A DNA stretch of 64,000 nt from sequence record PZ445427.1, one strand, 5' to 3'. The notes beneath the pieces were generated by a model. That model ran no database searches and was not told where the DNA came from. It was given only the letters and a program-made list of their open reading frames with translations. The stretch is from a phage. Of the stretch, positions 5,418 through 11,150 are shown piece by piece; the stretch's first letter is position 1; every line of letters starts with the position of its first letter. A program made the translations under genes and the position numbers.

Positions 5418-6886
5418 ATATCGCTGGCCTGTTCACCTGTTGAATTTTCAGCTTTGTCTTTCTTAGCACGTTTAGGTTGAGCTGGTTTATCCTTTTCAAT
5501 AGGAATAACGAACTCAGCTTCCATTTGCGCAATATCTTCCATTGCTAGGTTGGTAGTGTTATCCATTCGCAGAGTTTCCCAGTTCATCTTAGGCATAAAC
5601 TTCACACTATCAGAGGAACGAGTCTTAACGAAGTCAAACATAATAGCACCTTGACCGTTATCAGCTTTTGCAGCATTAAGATTAGCAGCCATATCTGCGG
5701 AATCAAGAATCCCTTTAGACATACGCGTTCTACCATCTTGGTCAATCTGGTAAGGGGCAACACCAGCCACGTTATGTTTCTGGCAGATAGATTTGAAAGA
5801 TGAACTAACAACCATCTGTTCTTTCCAGTCATACATATCAATGGTCTTTGAATCTGGAAGTCTTGTTTGGTTAATATAGTCTAGAAGAGCTACAGTAACC
5901 TTATCACCATACTTAGCAACTAGTTTATTTAATTCTACATCAACCGTCGTAATAGACAGTTCAGGATCGTAAACGATGATCATAGGAGTGTGAAGCTCAT
6001 AGCCTTCAAGGAGTTTACTTTCCATATCATAGAAGTCACTCATTTTAGCCATAGTGTATTGCTTAACGAAGTTATCGAAAAGCTCTTCACCACCATTAAA
6101 CATCCTAGCCCTAGTTCTGGCTAATCTCAACAGAGCAGCACCTTCAAGAGTGTTATTACGCATTGCTAATGCAGATACTCCAGCTAACATAGCCAGATTA
6201 CGTCTAAACACTTCGTGCTCTTTCATCTCAATTGAGAAATATGGAGCAATGTCTCCATTCAAATATTGCTGAACCTGTATGTTTGAACAGATAATGGATT
6301 TACCAGTACCACGCCAACCACCAAGCAGTAACGTTTCTGTGCGAGCTAAACCAATTTGAGCGTCGAACTCATTACAAATACCAAGAGCGATCAAGTTCAG
6401 TTTGGTATCTTCTTCTCTCTGGAAAATACGCATTGTGTCTGCGTTGAATACCTTTCCAGTATTCGTTACTTTCTCTTCTAATTTTAAGTGAAGGGAGGCA
6501 ACTCGGTTGAGAATTTCTCCCTGATCCAGCATTGTTAAATCTTGAAGCACGTCTGTTTCTAGAAGTTTCAGGAATAGATCCTGCGTATATTCAGCTTCTA
6601 GGACTTCAAGTGCCTGTTCCATGCTCACTTCTGGAATTTGAGTGTTAGCTAAGACGACAAGAGCTTGAGAAAGGCGGGCGTTCCTATTGGCCTCAAGCAT
6701 CAGTGCGTCAATGGACGGCATTGCGTTATATTTCTTATAATAATTCTGGACGGCTTGGTAAATTGAGGAGAAAGCGTCATTAAAATGATCTTTATGCAGT
6801 TTTGAGAATGTTTCCAATGCTACTTGCTTCTGTTCAGAAGCGAGAAGCATCTTCAACACTACAGCTTGCACGTTAAACAAGGTCAT
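5414..6886 (-). CDS. DnaB-like replicative helicase / RecA-fold ATPase
   Basis: Walker A GGWRGTGKS; start placed at internal ATG (6886, SD AAGGAGA) because the upstream ATG at 6937 sits inside a terminator hairpin. Confidence 0.6.
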   Translation of the reverse strand: MTLFNVQAVVLKMLLASEQKQVALETFSKLHKDHFNDAFSSIYQAVQNYYKKYNAMPSIDALMLEANRNARLSQALVVLANTQIPEVSMEQALEVLEAEYTQDLFLKLLETDVLQDLTMLDQGEILNRVASLHLKLEEKVTNTGKVFNADTMRIFQREEDTKLNLIALGICNEFDAQIGLARTETLLLGGWRGTGKSIICSNIQVQQYLNGDIAPYFSIEMKEHEVFRRNLAMLAGVSALAMRNNTLEGAALLRLARTRARMFNGGEELFDNFVKQYTMAKMSDFYDMESKLLEGYELHTPMIIVYDPELSITTVDVELNKLVAKYGDKVTVALLDYINQTRLPDSKTIDMYDWKEQMVVSSSFKSICQKHNVAGVAPYQIDQDGRTRMSKGILDSADMAANLNAAKADNGQGAIMFDFVKTRSSDSVKFMPKMNWETLRMDNTTNLAMEDIAQMEAEFVIPIEKDKPAQPKRAKKDKAENSTGEQASDI

Positions 6887-6918: not shown

Positions 6919-6950
6919 CAAAAAGGGGAAGGAGCATAGCCCCCTCCCCT
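6919..6950 (-). terminator. rho-independent terminator (minus strand)
   Basis: minus-strand GGGGAGGGGGC-TAT-GCTCCTTCCCC hairpin followed by T-run, just after stop of the 6969..7736 gene. Confidence 0.6.
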
Positions 6951-6968
6951 TAGGTTTAATTTACCAGA

Positions 6969-7736
6969 TTATTCAGCAGCCGCAGCTTTTGCATCCAGTT
7001 TAGCACGCTTAGCGGCACCATCATAGTCCTTAGCAACCAGACCACGACGAGACAGCATAGATTTAACACCGCGCTCAGACTTACCAGTTTTCTCAGCGAT
7101 CTCAGCAACAGTCATGTTAGCCAGATCCAGACCTTCTAACAGATCTTCACGAGTTTTAGCACTTGAAGTTTCCTGTACCGGCATAGCAGCGATACGACCT
7201 TCACGAAGCAGGCTCAGAGCTTTACCACGAATCTGCTTAATATTGCGACCGAAGTGAGCAGCGATAGCTTCAATAGTAGCACCAGCAACAACCTGATTAA
7301 CGAAATCAGTTTCTTCGTCAGGAGTGAAGGAACGAACAGCAGCAGCTTTTTCAGTTGGCTTAACAGAAGCGGTCATTTCCAGACTCAGGATCTTACCCTG
7401 TACCTGCTTAGCACCGAACTGACCACCAGCTACAGCAGCAGCGATTTCAGCGTAAGTATACTGACCAGCATGAGCGTTCAGGAAATCAACTAGTTCAGCT
7501 TCCTGCTCAGGAGTCCACGGGGATTTCTGTACTTCGTTAGCTTTCTGTACTTCGAAACCTTCTTTACGCAGCTTAGAGCCAACAGAGCGAGCGGTAACGT
7601 CTTTGCCAGTCTCGGTAGCCAGTTCAGCAGCGATAGCAGCTACTTGTTCTTGAGAGATTACAGCAACACCCAGAGCAGTGGCTTTTGCTTTCAGAGACTC
7701 GGTTACACCTTCTACGTTCCAGTTCAGTTTAGACAT
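6969..7736 (-). CDS. Ala-rich protein with repeated HTH-like units, putative DNA-binding regulator
   Basis: 255 aa; repeated segments resembling helix-turn-helix (e.g. MTVAEIAEKTGKSERGVKSMLSRRGL). Confidence 0.45.
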   Translation of the reverse strand: MSKLNWNVEGVTESLKAKATALGVAVISQEQVAAIAAELATETGKDVTARSVGSKLRKEGFEVQKANEVQKSPWTPEQEAELVDFLNAHAGQYTYAEIAAAVAGGQFGAKQVQGKILSLEMTASVKPTEKAAAVRSFTPDEETDFVNQVVAGATIEAIAAHFGRNIKQIRGKALSLLREGRIAAMPVQETSSAKTREDLLEGLDLANMTVAEIAEKTGKSERGVKSMLSRRGLVAKDYDGAAKRAKLDAKAAAAE

Positions 7737-8511
7737 TATTATTTTTCTCCAATAGTTCTTTAATCGACAGGATTTCTATCCCATTCGTTTCGGCTTTCTT
7801 ATAAGATGAGGAAGAACGTTTTGATTCATCCTCACAGATTAGGTATTTGACGTCTTTGGTAACGGACTTCTTGACCGTATATCCTAGACTTTCTAAATAG
7901 TTTGTTGCATCCGTTCGATTTGCAAAGTCTTGCAAAGATCCGGTAATACAGACCGTGATTCCATTTGGCTGGGCAACTAAATCATCTGTAATGATGATAT
8001 CAGCTTTAGCACCTCGAATACCAGTTGAGAATTTCCACGGTAGTTCAATAACATCCTTGCCTTGTGGGGAATTTAGCCAGGTTTTGTAATTTTCTCCAGC
8101 CTTGCCGTCAGCCTTCACATCGTGGAAGCTAGTGCAATTTTGGGACAGTTTCTTTGCTGCAACCTCTCCAATAAGAGGAATTCCTAAAGAACCGAGAACT
8201 GAACCAAAGTCAATGTCTCCGCGAACCTTAGTATTTAACTCGCTAATCAACTTAGCGGCAACCTTGCTACCCACAGCTCCTACCAAATCTTCTTCGGTCA
8301 GGTAAAACAGTTCTGAGATCTTAGTCAGCTCCAGCTTCTCAATAGTTTTCGGGCCAAAGCCCTTTAACTTCATTTTTGTGCAGAAGTTCTCGATTAACTT
8401 ACTTGATTGCGCTGGACAGTTGGACTTATTCCTACAGAATAATTGCCCGTTGACAAGATCTAGCTTAGAACCACAAGAGGGACATTGTGTTGGAATTTCG
8501 ATTTTCATCAA
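7729..8511 (-). CDS. NAD-dependent DNA ligase, C-terminal part (Zn finger, HhH, BRCT-like)
   Basis: 260 aa; Cys4 cluster CPSCGSK...CRNKSNC; HhH-like LKGFGPKTIEKL; separate ORF from the adenylation domain. Confidence 0.75.
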   Translation of the reverse strand: MMKIEIPTQCPSCGSKLDLVNGQLFCRNKSNCPAQSSKLIENFCTKMKLKGFGPKTIEKLELTKISELFYLTEEDLVGAVGSKVAAKLISELNTKVRGDIDFGSVLGSLGIPLIGEVAAKKLSQNCTSFHDVKADGKAGENYKTWLNSPQGKDVIELPWKFSTGIRGAKADIIITDDLVAQPNGITVCITGSLQDFANRTDATNYLESLGYTVKKSVTKDVKYLICEDESKRSSSSYKKAETNGIEILSIKELLEKNNNV

Positions 8512-8538
8512 ATTTCTTCCTTATCAATTTATATAAAT

Positions 8539-8567
8539 ATTATAGCAAGTATTTAAGCATTTAGCAA
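8539..8567 (-). promoter_or_regulatory. promoter cassette (minus strand) inside the ligase split
   Basis: minus-strand TTGCTA-N17-TATAAT plus conserved leader ATTTATATAAATTGATAAGGAAG directly upstream of ATG 8511. Confidence 0.6.
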
Positions 8568-8710
8568 CTACAATTTTAACTAACTTTGCTTACCCTCGCC
8601 ATAACTTTCTATCCCTCAACTGAATGATAATAGTATATACCTAAGCGGCGAAAATGTCAATAACCACTTTATAATTCCGACATGGTAAACGGGTAGCAAA
8701 GGGTTACGAA

Positions 8711-9682
8711 TTAGTCGTATACTCGCTCTACTATACAAGGGATTACACCACCAGCACGAATCACTCGAATCTGGCAACCGATCTCTAAATCGAGAGCGTT
8801 AATATAATCAACGTTATTAAGAGTTGCTTTAACGATTGTGGCATCATCAATAATCACCGGTTCGAAATAACCAACTGGAGTTACTTTACCAGAAGCCCCT
8901 ACTTGCCATTCAACTTTAACAAGTGTGGTAATTTCGCCTTCTTCATCCTCTTTAATAGCAAATGCACCACGAGGAAATTTATTAGTCCAACCTTCACGGA
9001 AGAATTTGTTGTTATCATTAATACGAACAACTTTACCATCCGTCGGAATCCACTTAAAGAAGGAACGAACATTAACAACTGTCAAGAAGTTCTCATTCTC
9101 TAGCCAAAGCATATCTTTTAAATAGGCTTCTGTAATACCGACTGTTTCCGCTGAACACTGGATACCATATGCAACGAAGATTAAACCACCTTCACCAATA
9201 CGTTGCATGAAATCATCGCTGTCTTTCAGGTTAATAGCACCCGAAGCGTAGTTACGTTTGTTCTCTACTTCTTTAGTAATGAGAACTTCACCAGTGATTT
9301 GAGTTGGTACTTTTTGGGAAATAGTTTTGGGGATGTTTAGCATTTTAACATTATGCGTTACATCATTCCCTAGAATACCGTTACCACGAGTTAACGCTTG
9401 AACAAATTCACCATTAATATATAACAGAGAAATTGCACAGCCATCTAACTTATCAGTTTCAACCTGACCTAATGGATTGAATGGAGCTTTATCACCACGA
9501 CCGTAATAGACTTTCTGCAAAGAATACATACGATACAAGTGAGGAATATCACCTTTCGGTCCGATTTCTTCCTCTAGTGGGAATCTTTTAATCAGACGAT
9601 CATATTCTTCATCGGAAATAAGACTCATTCCCTGGTAGTACGCTTCTTGACAACGTTTGATAAAGTCTTTTACATTATTCAT
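8711..9682 (-). CDS. NAD-dependent DNA ligase, N-terminal adenylation domain
   Basis: 323 aa; adenylation lysine motif KLDGCA; OB-fold region follows. Confidence 0.8.
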   Translation of the reverse strand: MNNVKDFIKRCQEAYYQGMSLISDEEYDRLIKRFPLEEEIGPKGDIPHLYRMYSLQKVYYGRGDKAPFNPLGQVETDKLDGCAISLLYINGEFVQALTRGNGILGNDVTHNVKMLNIPKTISQKVPTQITGEVLITKEVENKRNYASGAINLKDSDDFMQRIGEGGLIFVAYGIQCSAETVGITEAYLKDMLWLENENFLTVVNVRSFFKWIPTDGKVVRINDNNKFFREGWTNKFPRGAFAIKEDEEGEITTLVKVEWQVGASGKVTPVGYFEPVIIDDATIVKATLNNVDYINALDLEIGCQIRVIRAGGVIPCIVERVYD

Positions 9683-9875
9683 CGTCTGCGATTTCCATTT
9701 TGAGTTCTTTATTATACTGAGCAGCCATACCAGCTAAATCAGCAGCTTCTTTTAACCACGCATCTTTGTACGCTTTCTGGTTTGGAGTGCCAATATTGTC
9801 CTGATAATTGATCTTTGCTATGGAAAGCAAATTAAGTTTTGCTTGAATCTTTGGAAGTGTTATTGTCATTGCCAT
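9675..9875 (-). CDS. hypothetical small protein
   Basis: ORF to 9893; first ATGs lie in the conserved leader, so start placed at ATG after GAGAGG. Confidence 0.4.
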   Translation of the reverse strand: MAMTITLPKIQAKLNLLSIAKINYQDNIGTPNQKAYKDAWLKEAADLAGMAAQYNKELKMEIADDE

Positions 9876-9904
9876 AATTGATCCTCTCATCAATTTATAT
9901 AAAT

Positions 9905-9933
9905 ATTATATATGAAAACTGAGTCGAAAGCAA
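9905..9933 (-). promoter_or_regulatory. promoter cassette (minus strand)
   Basis: minus-strand TTGCTT-N17-TATAAT followed by ATTTATATAAATTGATGAGAGG leader. Confidence 0.6.
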
Positions 9934-9960
9934 GTACATTTATAAAGAAAAAGCCAAGAA

Positions 9961-10269
9961 CTAGGCATTCTTGGCTTTGAGTTCTTCAGCTCGTTTCTGT
10001 ACTTCATGCAAGACCTCGGATTCACTGAGGATTTGCGTAAAAGCGTAGAATAGCTGTGACGTAGTTTCTAGGGTATAAGGAAAAGAGAAGCCGGATTTCG
10101 TTGGAAACCACTCTCCAGTAATATCTTGGAGCCAGTAACGAATTCCCATGTATAGATTCCCACGAAATTCAGATACGGTTAGTCTTACTTGTTCTCCCTC
10201 CTTCTCCCAAAGCATGATGGACTGGTCGTCAACGTGTCCTTCATAGTTTTGATTTACCTGATCGCTCAT
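9961..10269 (-). CDS. hypothetical protein (102 aa)
   Basis: clean ORF in gene-dense minus-strand block. Confidence 0.5.
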   Translation of the reverse strand: MSDQVNQNYEGHVDDQSIMLWEKEGEQVRLTVSEFRGNLYMGIRYWLQDITGEWFPTKSGFSFPYTLETTSQLFYAFTQILSESEVLHEVQKRAEELKAKNA

Positions 10270-11063: not shown

Positions 11064-11121
11064 ATTTTTCGATTTCCTTAATTAAGAATTAAACAGAATA
11101 GTTCTTTCAAACTATGAGAAT

Positions 11122-11150
11122 ATTATATCAAGAATTACAGGATTAAGCAA
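11122..11150 (-). promoter_or_regulatory. promoter cassette (minus strand)
   Basis: minus-strand TTGCTT-N17-TATAAT. Confidence 0.55.

What the first reader, a model, noticed from the sequence alone, without database searches (positions are those of the whole stretch)
7729..9682. NAD-dependent DNA ligase encoded as two separate ORFs with a promoter cassette in the 199-bp gap
Seen in sequence: the adenylation domain (8711..9682, KLDGCA) and the Zn-finger/HhH/BRCT-like part (7729..8511) are separate ORFs on the same strand. The gap is AT-rich and contains a complete minus-strand promoter cassette (8539-8567) ending at the second ORF start. Inference: either a genuinely two-subunit ligase or the footprint of an insertion that split an ancestral gene.
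Basis: partly seen in the sequence, partly recalled or inferred. Interest (0 to 1): 0.5.

Follow-up and report, generated by a model that had tools for sequence, protein, structure and literature searches.

The report
T5-type two-gene NAD-dependent DNA ligase
This is the known ligA/ligB pair of T5-like phages, an NAD-dependent DNA ligase made as two proteins, with the two known T5 early promoters between the genes; it is real but ordinary for this phage family.

Summary
The window is a T5-like Salmonella phage, 100% identical to phage EH4 over this stretch. ORF 8711..9682(-) encodes domain Ia, the adenylation domain and the OB fold. ORF 7729..8508(-) encodes the Zn finger, HhH region and BRCT domain.

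The two halves tile E. coli LigA and single-chain phage relatives, meeting at the OB-Zn linker with nothing important missing. Both are under strong purifying selection (dN/dS 0.05 and 0.08). No intron or recoding signal was found.

All of this is already on record:
- T5 RefSeq annotates ligA (T5.116) and ligB (T5.117), with promoters P-K28b and P-K28a in the gap.
- PDB entries 9HU3 and 9I5I hold both subunits of the homologous enzyme from Providencia phage PR1.

- The split is present in all 55 fetched relatives.
- The tandem promoters keep a fixed distance from ligB across genera.
- The spot just after the ligA stop is a variable slot. Relatives carry a GIY-YIG homing endonuclease, a NADAR gene or a DprA-like gene there.
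- Single-chain relatives of 555-578 aa exist, one of them in T5-like gene order.

Verdict: already known, low interest.

The parts
8711..9682 (-). ligA: catalytic subunit, 323 aa, with a short domain Ia, the nucleotidyltransferase domain (adenylation lysine K78 in KLDGCA) and the OB fold
   Evidence: ORF list. Pfam PF01653 and PF03120. K78 aligns with E. coli LigA K115, and the C-terminus aligns to about residue 390-393. PDB 9hu3_A matches at E 1.8e-106. dN/dS against T5 is 0.048.
8661..8710 (-). Variable slot between the ligA stop and the upstream promoter. It is empty here. Relatives carry 0-3 extra ORFs at this point.
   Evidence: Most variable gap positions among T5-like phages lie in the first 32 nt after the stop. 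Insertions at this point: GIY-YIG endonuclease in SP3, a 64-aa ORF in bastian, a 55-aa ORF in PM135, NADAR in Proteus phage Stubb, and DprA-like plus two unknown ORFs in Vibrio phages.
8632..8660 (-). Upstream sigma-70 promoter TTGACA-17-TATACT, corresponding to T5 'promoter P-K 28b'
   Evidence: Scan, 11 of 12 matches. The T5 RefSeq feature at 66366-66440 maps here through the collinear alignment A1. A promoter at the same distance from ligB is present in Klebsiella, Proteus, Providencia and Vibrio phages.
8539..8567 (-). Downstream sigma-70 promoter TTGCTA-17-(TG)TATAAT, corresponding to T5 'promoter P-K 28a'.
   Evidence: Scan. T5 RefSeq feature 66459-66533. Annotated as a promoter in AKFV33. 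It is one of 23 matches to the T5 consensus in the window, against 0.01 expected.
8516..8522 (-). Shine-Dalgarno AAGGAAG of ligB, 7 nt before the ATG at 8508
   Evidence: Read from the sequence. A ribosome_binding_site is annotated at the same place in Seafire.
7729..8508 (-). ligB: DNA-binding subunit, 259 aa, with a Cys4 Zn finger (C9, C12, C25, C31), the HhH region and a BRCT domain
   Evidence: ORF list. Pfam BRCT and HHH_2. Aligns to E. coli LigA 402-529 and 585-666; PDB 9hu3_B matches at E 1.1e-79. The four Cys are invariant in five genera. dN/dS against T5 is 0.079.
6969..7736 (-). D5 gene. Its start overlaps the ligB stop (ATGTCTAA). It is transcribed together with ligB from the gap promoters.
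   Evidence: ORF list and sequence. Annotated as D5 in Seafire and T5. The ligB-D5 order is kept in all genera examined and behind the fused ligase in L066.
6923..6951 (-). Intrinsic-terminator-like hairpin after D5, the probable end of the ligB-D5 transcription unit
   Evidence: Scan: 13 pairs followed by a T run. A terminator is annotated at the equivalent place in AKFV33.
9904..9933 (-). T5-type promoter TTGCTT-17-TATAATA that heads the transcription unit of the small ORF (9675..9875) and ligA. It is preceded by a terminator-like hairpin at 9950..9978.
   Evidence: Pattern search, sequence, terminator scan.

Best explanation
These are the ligA and ligB genes of a T5-like phage (Demerecviridae). 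[quoted passage not shown]

LigA (323 aa) carries the chemistry. A short domain Ia recognises NAD+, the nucleotidyltransferase domain holds the adenylated lysine K78, and an OB fold follows. LigB (259 aa) carries the DNA-clamping and recruitment modules that form the C-terminal half of bacterial LigA: the Cys4 Zn finger, the HhH region and the BRCT domain. The break falls in the OB-Zn linker, so every domain is intact.

Inferred mechanism: the two proteins associate, on their own or on nicked DNA, to rebuild the LigA clamp. They then seal nicks in the usual three steps: enzyme-AMP, DNA-adenylate, phosphodiester.

The 202-nt spacer is not debris. It holds the two tandem early promoters annotated in T5 as P-K28b and P-K28a. 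These start a separate ligB-D5 transcription unit that ends at a terminator after D5. ligA is transcribed from its own promoter at about 9.93 kb.

Evolution (inferred): a compact single-chain ligase in an ancestor of T5-like phages was split at the linker by inserted DNA. The position just after the ligA stop is still a landing site for mobile and accessory genes.
For: Identity of the region:
- 100% identical to Salmonella phage EH4, with 453 related phage records.
- Annotated as ligase subunits A and B in many relatives. T5 itself has ligA T5.116 and ligB T5.117, with promoters P-K28b and P-K28a in the gap.
- The T5 literature lists ligA and ligB as ligase subunits (PMC3632103; PMC4319617).

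Domains and tiling:
- Pfam hits and alignments to E. coli and T. filiformis LigA.
- Alignment to single-chain relatives shows A ending and B starting within the roughly 17-residue linker.

Two-chain enzyme:
- PDB 9HU3 and 9I5I contain both chains. Their termini match those of these ORFs. The source is Providencia phage PR1.

Selection and spread:
- dN/dS is 0.048 for ligA and 0.079 for ligB.
- The genes are split in 43 of 43 IMG/VR loci and 12 of 12 metagenome loci, down to about 41% identity.
- More than 100 clusters of stand-alone LigB-like proteins exist.

Promoters:
- Both found by the scan.
- The last 172 nt of the gap are identical to T5. Only 5 of 167 sites vary among 26 T5-like phages, against 185 of 323 third codon positions in ligA.
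- Both promoters keep their distance to ligB across genera.

Fission:
- Fused relatives of 555-578 aa exist. One lies in T5-like synteny.
- A GIY-YIG endonuclease occupies the slot in SP3.
Against: - No activity, complex formation or transcript start was measured for this phage.
- I could not read the 9HU3 entry or find its publication, so the interface and any bound DNA are unknown to me.
- Neither subunit has an extra tail at the split that could hold the halves together. How they associate is therefore unexplained.
- Promoter function here rests on the T5 annotation and on sequence identity.
- The direction of evolution is not proven. In a poorly resolved NJ tree, four fused forms are nested among split ones. 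Several fissions, or re-fusions, remain possible.
- The motif IV lysine (E. coli K290) is arginine here. That substitution is shared with PR1 and the fused relatives.
Confidence: 0.9

Rival explanations
1. The halves work independently. LigA alone (Ia, NTase and OB) is a minimal ligase. LigB has become a separate DNA-binding or scaffold protein, perhaps acting with D5, with which it is co-transcribed and translationally coupled.
For: - ligB and D5 overlap (ATGTCTAA) and share promoters and a terminator.
- The ligB-D5 pairing is universal among the relatives examined.
- No interaction tails are present at the split.
- From my own knowledge, minimal NTase-OB ligases exist among ATP-dependent enzymes; PMC12133292 mentions them.
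Against: - Both chains are deposited together in two PDB entries, and chain B is named 'DNA ligase subunit B'.
- ligA and ligB co-occur and sit adjacent in 55 of 55 relatives.
- From my own knowledge of LigA deletion studies, not checked here: fragments lacking the Zn and HhH parts adenylate themselves but seal nicks poorly.
Confidence: 0.06
2. The gap is removed, or bypassed, so that one polypeptide is made, by a group I or II intron, an intein, frameshifting or translational bypass.
For: Phage genes interrupted by introns and homing endonucleases are common (PMC2988022). The leader RNA of this phage folds better than shuffled sequence, z = -3.3.
Against: - No Rfam family reaches significance in 8300-8950 even at E up to 10.
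- No structure is shared across genera: 0 predicted pairs.
- The gap holds two conserved promoters and an SD.
- The ORFs are in different frames.
- The PDB chains end and begin exactly at the ORF termini.
- The gap ranges from 70 to 1374 nt and contains unrelated genes in relatives.
Confidence: 0.02
3. One half is a decaying pseudogene left by a disruptive insertion, and the phage relies on the host LigA.
For: The gene is interrupted, and the host already has a LigA.
Against: - dN/dS is 0.05-0.08 for both halves.
- The catalytic and Zn-binding residues are intact.
- Both ORFs are intact in 55 of 55 relatives spanning 41-100% identity.
- ligB has its own SD and promoters.
Confidence: 0.02

Closest known systems
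Bacteriophage T5 ligA (T5.116) and ligB (T5.117) with promoters P-K28b and P-K28a (RefSeq NC_005859)
   Same: Same genes, order, strand and 202-nt gap. LigA is about 96% identical and LigB about 97%. The last 172 nt of the gap, including both promoters, are identical.
   Different: Nothing of substance. This phage is an Epseptimavirus rather than a Tequintavirus, and it has an extra small ORF upstream of ligA.
Providencia phage vB_PreS_PR1 ligase, PDB 9HU3 / 9I5I (chains 'DNA ligase (NAD(+))' and 'DNA ligase subunit B')
   Same: Homologous two-chain enzyme, E 1.8e-106 and 1.1e-79. The chain termini coincide with the ORF termini here. It has the same ligA-gap-ligB-D5 layout with two promoters.
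   Different: About 55-60% identity. The PR1 gap sequence differs and has an annotated terminator after ligA. I could not read the structure itself.
Bacterial LigA (E. coli 2OWO, T. filiformis 1DGS/1V9P)
   Same: Same domain series: Ia, NTase, OB, Zn, HhH, BRCT. The KxDG lysine, motif V lysine and four Zn cysteines align.
   Different: Bacterial LigA is one 671-aa chain. Here there are two chains totalling 582 aa. Ia and NTase are about 66 residues shorter, and the motif IV lysine is arginine.
Genes-in-pieces made by free-standing homing endonucleases: Aeh1 nrdA split by mobE, T4 gene 39/60 with mobA, phage 25 gene 43 (PMC2988022, PMC3045599)
   Same: An essential replication enzyme is encoded as two adjacent genes that reassemble as protein. 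Related phages have the uninterrupted gene. An endonuclease gene occupies the split site in some relatives.
   Different: - The split is ancient and family-wide, not a recent event in one phage.
- No endonuclease is present in this window.
- The split lies at a domain linker, not inside an active site.
- No new interaction tails are present, unlike NrdA-a/NrdA-b.

Membership tests
NAD+-dependent DNA ligase (LigA family) | Nucleotidyltransferase domain with the KxDG adenylation motif | tested here: met
   KLDGCA. K78 aligns with E. coli K115. Pfam PF01653, 2.2e-23.
NAD+-dependent DNA ligase (LigA family) | N-terminal domain Ia that confers NAD+ specificity | tested here: inconclusive
   Only a weak alignment of residues 2-42 to T. 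filiformis 11-52. The YY...SDEEYD motif is kept. No Pfam-level hit and no cofactor assay.
NAD+-dependent DNA ligase (LigA family) | OB-fold domain after the NTase domain | tested here: met
   PF03120, 9.4e-22. Residues 214-320 align to E. coli 284-390.
NAD+-dependent DNA ligase (LigA family) | Cys4 Zn finger, HhH region and BRCT domain | tested here: met
   All are on ORF B, aligned to E. coli 402-529 and 585-666. BRCT 1.1e-8. HHH_2 is below the Pfam cut-off. The four Cys are invariant.
NAD+-dependent DNA ligase (LigA family) | All domains on one polypeptide | tested here: not met
   Two ORFs in different frames, 202 nt apart. This is the known T5-type variant.
NAD+-dependent DNA ligase (LigA family) | NAD+-dependent nick-sealing activity | not testable with these tools
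   Needs purified proteins.
T5-type two-subunit ligase (Demerecviridae LigA/LigB) | Adjacent same-strand ligA and ligB genes, split at the OB-Zn linker and followed by D5 and a DnaB-like helicase | tested here: met
   The same layout is seen in five genera.
T5-type two-subunit ligase (Demerecviridae LigA/LigB) | Sequence homology to both chains of the solved PR1 enzyme | tested here: met
   E 1.8e-106 and 1.1e-79, full length.
T5-type two-subunit ligase (Demerecviridae LigA/LigB) | Physical complex of the two proteins | not testable with these tools
   Only inferred, from the two chains being deposited together in 9HU3 and 9I5I.
T5 early promoters P-K28b / P-K28a | Sequence identity with the annotated T5 promoter features | tested here: met
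   The T5 features at 66366-66440 and 66459-66533 map to window 8680-8606 and 8587-8513. There are no differences in the last 172 nt of the gap.
Gene split by a resident homing endonuclease (genes-in-pieces) | An endonuclease gene between the two halves | tested here: not met
   No credible ORF in the window's gap. One is present in the relative SP3 (GIY-YIG, PF01541, 1.1e-5) and in one other phage.
Gene split by a resident homing endonuclease (genes-in-pieces) | Uninterrupted gene in related genomes | tested here: met
   Fused proteins of 555-578 aa. P0106 is 43% identical to LigA and 40% to LigB, in T5-like synteny.
Self-splicing intron or intein | Ribozyme core, or an in-frame protein-splicing domain | tested here: not met
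   No Rfam hit, no conserved structure, and the ORFs are in different frames.

The most novel reading that the evidence does not exclude
The split arose once, when a promoter-bearing or mobile segment landed in the OB-Zn linker of a compact single-chain ligase in an ancestor of T5-like phages. It has been kept because it places the DNA-binding half, together with D5, under its own strong tandem promoters. This lets the phage dose or time LigB separately from the catalytic half, possibly so that the ligase does not seal the programmed nicks in T5 DNA. The position just after the ligA stop remains an active landing pad for homing endonucleases and accessory genes such as NADAR and DprA-like.
Probability: 0.25. 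Interest if true: 0.4.

Novelty: already known. Interest (0 to 1): 0.15.

Why it matters
The finding adds little on its own. The split ligase has been annotated in the T5 record and its relatives, and a homologous two-chain enzyme is now in the PDB.

The side results could be useful to people who study how essential enzymes survive fission. The family offers many natural split forms and natural fused forms of the same compact ligase in the same genomic context. It also offers a conserved promoter pair at the break and a live insertion site next to it. That is good material for testing whether fission at a domain linker is neutral or is selected for separate regulation of the two halves.

Tried and rejected
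- **Intron or ribozyme in the gap.** The Rfam scan at E up to 10 gave only noise.
- **Conserved leader RNA.** RNAalifold on nine genera gave 0 pairs. The window's own leader folds at z = -3.3, but the fold is not shared.
- **Leftover endonuclease in the window's gap.** Homology with SP3 resumes about 8 nt after the ligA stop, and nothing endonuclease-like remains.
- **bastian's 64-aa ORF as a remnant of the SP3 endonuclease.** It is not related to it.
- **Mini-ORF MARVSKVS behind the upstream promoter.** It is not conserved in Klebsiella or Vibrio phages, so I do not treat it as a gene.
- **The 53-aa ORF at 8616..8777.** It overlaps ligA out of frame and runs through the promoter, so it is spurious.
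- **Publication behind 9HU3.** Five literature searches failed to find it. A search for 'K28a' also gave nothing relevant.
- **Uniqueness of the gap's conservation.** I asked whether the extreme conservation is unique to the gap. It is not: other patches in the flanking genes are equally conserved.
- **Invalid dN/dS values.** The values for L031 ligB and L034 ligA are invalid because of indels and are not used.
- **Fission history.** The NJ tree of LigB regions is too poorly resolved to count fission events.
Full report
**What is there**

The ORF listing shows two minus-strand ORFs, 8711..9682 (323 aa) and 7729..8511 (260 aa from a TTG, 259 aa from the ATG at 8508). The sequence between them was read directly.

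- The first ORF contains KLDGCA. It hits Pfam DNA_ligase_aden (2.2e-23) and DNA_ligase_OB (9.4e-22).
- The second hits BRCT (1.1e-8) and, below the curated cut-off, HHH_2.

Homologues, the Seafire annotation and PDB chain 9hu3_B all start MKI. The real ligB start is therefore the ATG at 8508, and the spacer is 202 nt.

**Where the window comes from**

The 2.2-kb stretch is 100% identical to Salmonella phages EH4, EH2 and EH5. It matches 453 phage records, nearly all T5-like phages of Salmonella, Escherichia and Klebsiella. [quoted passage not shown]

The T5 reference record has ligA (T5.116) and ligB (T5.117). Between them it has two regulatory features, 'promoter P-K 28b' and 'promoter P-K 28a'. 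Papers on T5 and on phage Stitch list ligA and ligB as ligase subunits (PMC3632103; PMC4319617).

**Tiling on LigA**

- ORF A aligns to E. coli LigA (2OWO) with K78 on K115 and residues 214-320 on 284-390. Three more residues follow before its stop.
- ORF B residue 3 aligns to E. coli 402, and its BRCT part to 585-666.
- The Cys4 Zn finger (C9, C12, C25, C31) is invariant in five genera.
- Domain Ia is short but keeps the YY...SDEEYD motif in a weak alignment to the T. filiformis enzyme.

The break therefore lies in the OB-Zn linker and no domain is lost. ORF A is about 66 residues shorter than the equivalent part of E. coli LigA. The motif IV lysine (K290) is arginine.

**A real two-chain enzyme**

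The best PDB matches are 9hu3_A (339 aa, 'DNA ligase (NAD(+))', E 1.8e-106) and 9hu3_B (248 aa, 'DNA ligase subunit B', E 1.1e-79). Both are also in 9I5I. The chain A sequence is 100% identical to Providencia phage vB_PreS_PR1 by tblastn.

Chain A ends, and chain B begins, at the positions where the two ORFs here end and begin. I could not find the associated paper in the held library. I cannot see the coordinates, so the interface is unknown to me.

**Not a pseudogene, not spliced**

- Against T5, dN/dS is 0.048 for ligA and 0.079 for ligB.
- Rfam finds nothing in 8300-8950 even at E up to 10.
- The ORFs are in different frames.
- RNAalifold finds no shared structure in the leader across nine genera.

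**The gap**

The scan finds two minus-strand sigma-70 sites:

- TTGACA-17-TATACT at 8660..8632, 11 of 12 matches.
- TTGCTA-17-TATAAT, with TG before the -10, at 8567..8539, 10 of 12 matches.

By collinear alignment the two sites fall inside the T5 features P-K28b and P-K28a. AKFV33 also annotates the downstream one as a promoter.

The T5 consensus TTGCT-N18-TATAATA occurs 23 times in the window against 0.01 expected. Blast finds about 15 related cassettes elsewhere in the window.

The last 172 nt of the gap are identical between this phage and T5, although synonymous sites in the flanking genes differ by 20-42%. Among 26 T5-like phages only 5 of 167 sites vary there, against 185 of 323 third codon positions in ligA. 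This block is about 30 times less diverse than the median 60-nt window of the locus. A few coding patches are equally conserved, so it is not unique.

**Transcription units (inferred)**

- ligA follows a small ORF (9675..9875) behind its own T5-type promoter at 9933..9904. That promoter comes after a terminator-like hairpin at 9978..9950.
- No terminator is predicted after ligA.
- ligB overlaps D5 by ATGTCTAA. A strong terminator-like hairpin follows D5 at 6951..6923.

ligB and D5 therefore appear to form a unit driven by the two gap promoters, plus any read-through from ligA.

**Relatives**

- Klebsiella (Sugarlandvirus), Proteus (Novosibvirus), Providencia (Priunavirus) and Vibrio phages all have ligA, a gap, ligB and D5.
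- In 43 of 43 IMG/VR loci and 12 of 12 metagenome loci the two genes are separate. Gaps range from 70 to 1374 nt, down to about 41% protein identity.
- In nearly all of them the two promoters sit with their -10 boxes about 117-127 and 24-32 nt before ligB. Two of the most divergent loci, with 70-71-nt gaps, have a single promoter.
- Extra material always lies between the ligA stop and the upstream promoter.
  - Salmonella phage SP3 has a 213-aa GIY-YIG endonuclease there (PF01541, 1.1e-5). It overlaps the ligA stop and is mislabelled 'ligase subunit A'. A second phage carries the same gene.
  - bastian has a 64-aa ORF and PM135 a 55-aa ORF.
  - Proteus phage Stubb has a NADAR gene, 1.6e-31.
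  - Vibrio phages have a DprA-like gene plus two unknown ORFs.

**Uninterrupted relatives**

A full HMMER search of 1.84 billion representatives with LigB gave 60 hits below 1e-30. More than 100 clusters of stand-alone proteins of about 235-265 aa are among the 150 listed hits. Compact single-chain proteins of 555-578 aa appear among those same hits.

Aligned to these, ORF A and ORF B meet inside the roughly 17-residue linker between '...IIPxI' and 'CPSC'.

One fused protein, P0106 (557 aa), is 43% identical to LigA and 40% to LigB. Its gene lies on an 18-kb metagenome contig. It is followed by a D5 homologue (44% identity, 4e-58), a DnaB-like helicase (5e-58) and a primase, which is the T5 gene order. 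A second fused gene also has T5-like neighbours.

In an NJ tree the canonical long LigA sequences form the outgroup. Most compact fused forms branch near the base of the compact group, but four are nested among split forms. The tree has long terminal branches and no support values, so the number of fission events is open.

**Interpretation**

The best-supported reading is the known one: a two-subunit NAD-dependent ligase whose genes are separated by functional promoters.

The assembly mechanism is inferred from LigA biology and from the co-deposited PR1 chains. It was not shown here.

An ancestral fission is likely, because all other LigA enzymes and some T5-like relatives are single-chain. 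What caused it is unknown. The closest analogues are the genes-in-pieces cases created by free-standing endonucleases in T4-like phages (PMC2988022; PMC3045599). This case differs in that the split is old, lies at a linker, shows no added interaction tails, and has no endonuclease in this genome.

**Verdict**

The finding is real and correctly read, but already known. Interest is low. The comparative details found here are incremental: the fixed tandem promoters, the insertion slot, and the fused relatives in T5-like synteny.

Noticed in passing
It corresponds to T5 P-K28b and is kept at the same distance from ligB in Klebsiella, Proteus, Providencia and Vibrio phages.
   Followed up: yes
window 8576..8602 (-): A mini-ORF, MARVSKVS, sits 9 nt behind a GAGGGA Shine-Dalgarno just downstream of the upstream promoter. 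Providencia phage PR1 has a 9-aa ORF (MADKPDGNE) at the same place, but Klebsiella and Vibrio phages do not. It is probably not a gene.
   Followed up: partly
window 8506..8626 (-): The predicted leader RNA from the upstream promoter folds into a hairpin that pairs GUUAUGGCGAG with the -10 region of the downstream promoter (-26.1 kcal/mol, z = -3.3). No structure is shared across genera.
   Followed up: partly
window 8451..8670: The promoter block plus the first codons of ligB form the longest near-invariant stretch in the 8.7-kb locus among T5-like phages (pi 0.003-0.007 against a median of 0.096). Equally conserved shorter patches lie at 7671-7810, 6716-6835 and 11072-11131.
   Followed up: partly
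whole window; L005 1859-2500; L008 3447-4214: Database mis-annotations. [quoted passage not shown] D5 is labelled 'portal vertex protein' in SP3 and 'endonuclease' in SPLA5b. ligA is labelled 'putative tail protein' in Klebsiella phage Uniso31.
   Followed up: yes
window, 23 sites listed: The T5 promoter consensus TTGCT-N18-TATAATA occurs 23 times against 0.01 expected. Four sites are on the minus strand below 12.2 kb and nineteen on the plus strand above 21.2 kb, which marks a switch in transcription direction.
   Followed up: no
L051 3177-3809; L043 3281-3844; L003 1869-2501: Accessory genes move around the ligase. Proteus phage Stubb has a NADAR gene between ligA and ligB. Vibrio phages have a DprA-like gene there, while in Proteus phage PM135 the DprA-like gene lies upstream of ligA.
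   Followed up: partly
L066 6992-7020 (+): In the metagenomic phage with the uninterrupted ligase, an 11-of-12 sigma-70-like site with an extended -10 lies inside the Zn-finger coding part, about 50 nt past the point where T5-like phages are split. It could be chance, or an internal promoter for the downstream D5 gene.
   Followed up: no
window 9023..9025 (-), LigA residue R220: The motif IV lysine of LigA (E. coli K290 in DGVVIK) is arginine (DGKVVRIN). The same substitution is seen in the PR1 enzyme and the fused compact relatives. The consequence for catalysis is unknown.
   Followed up: no
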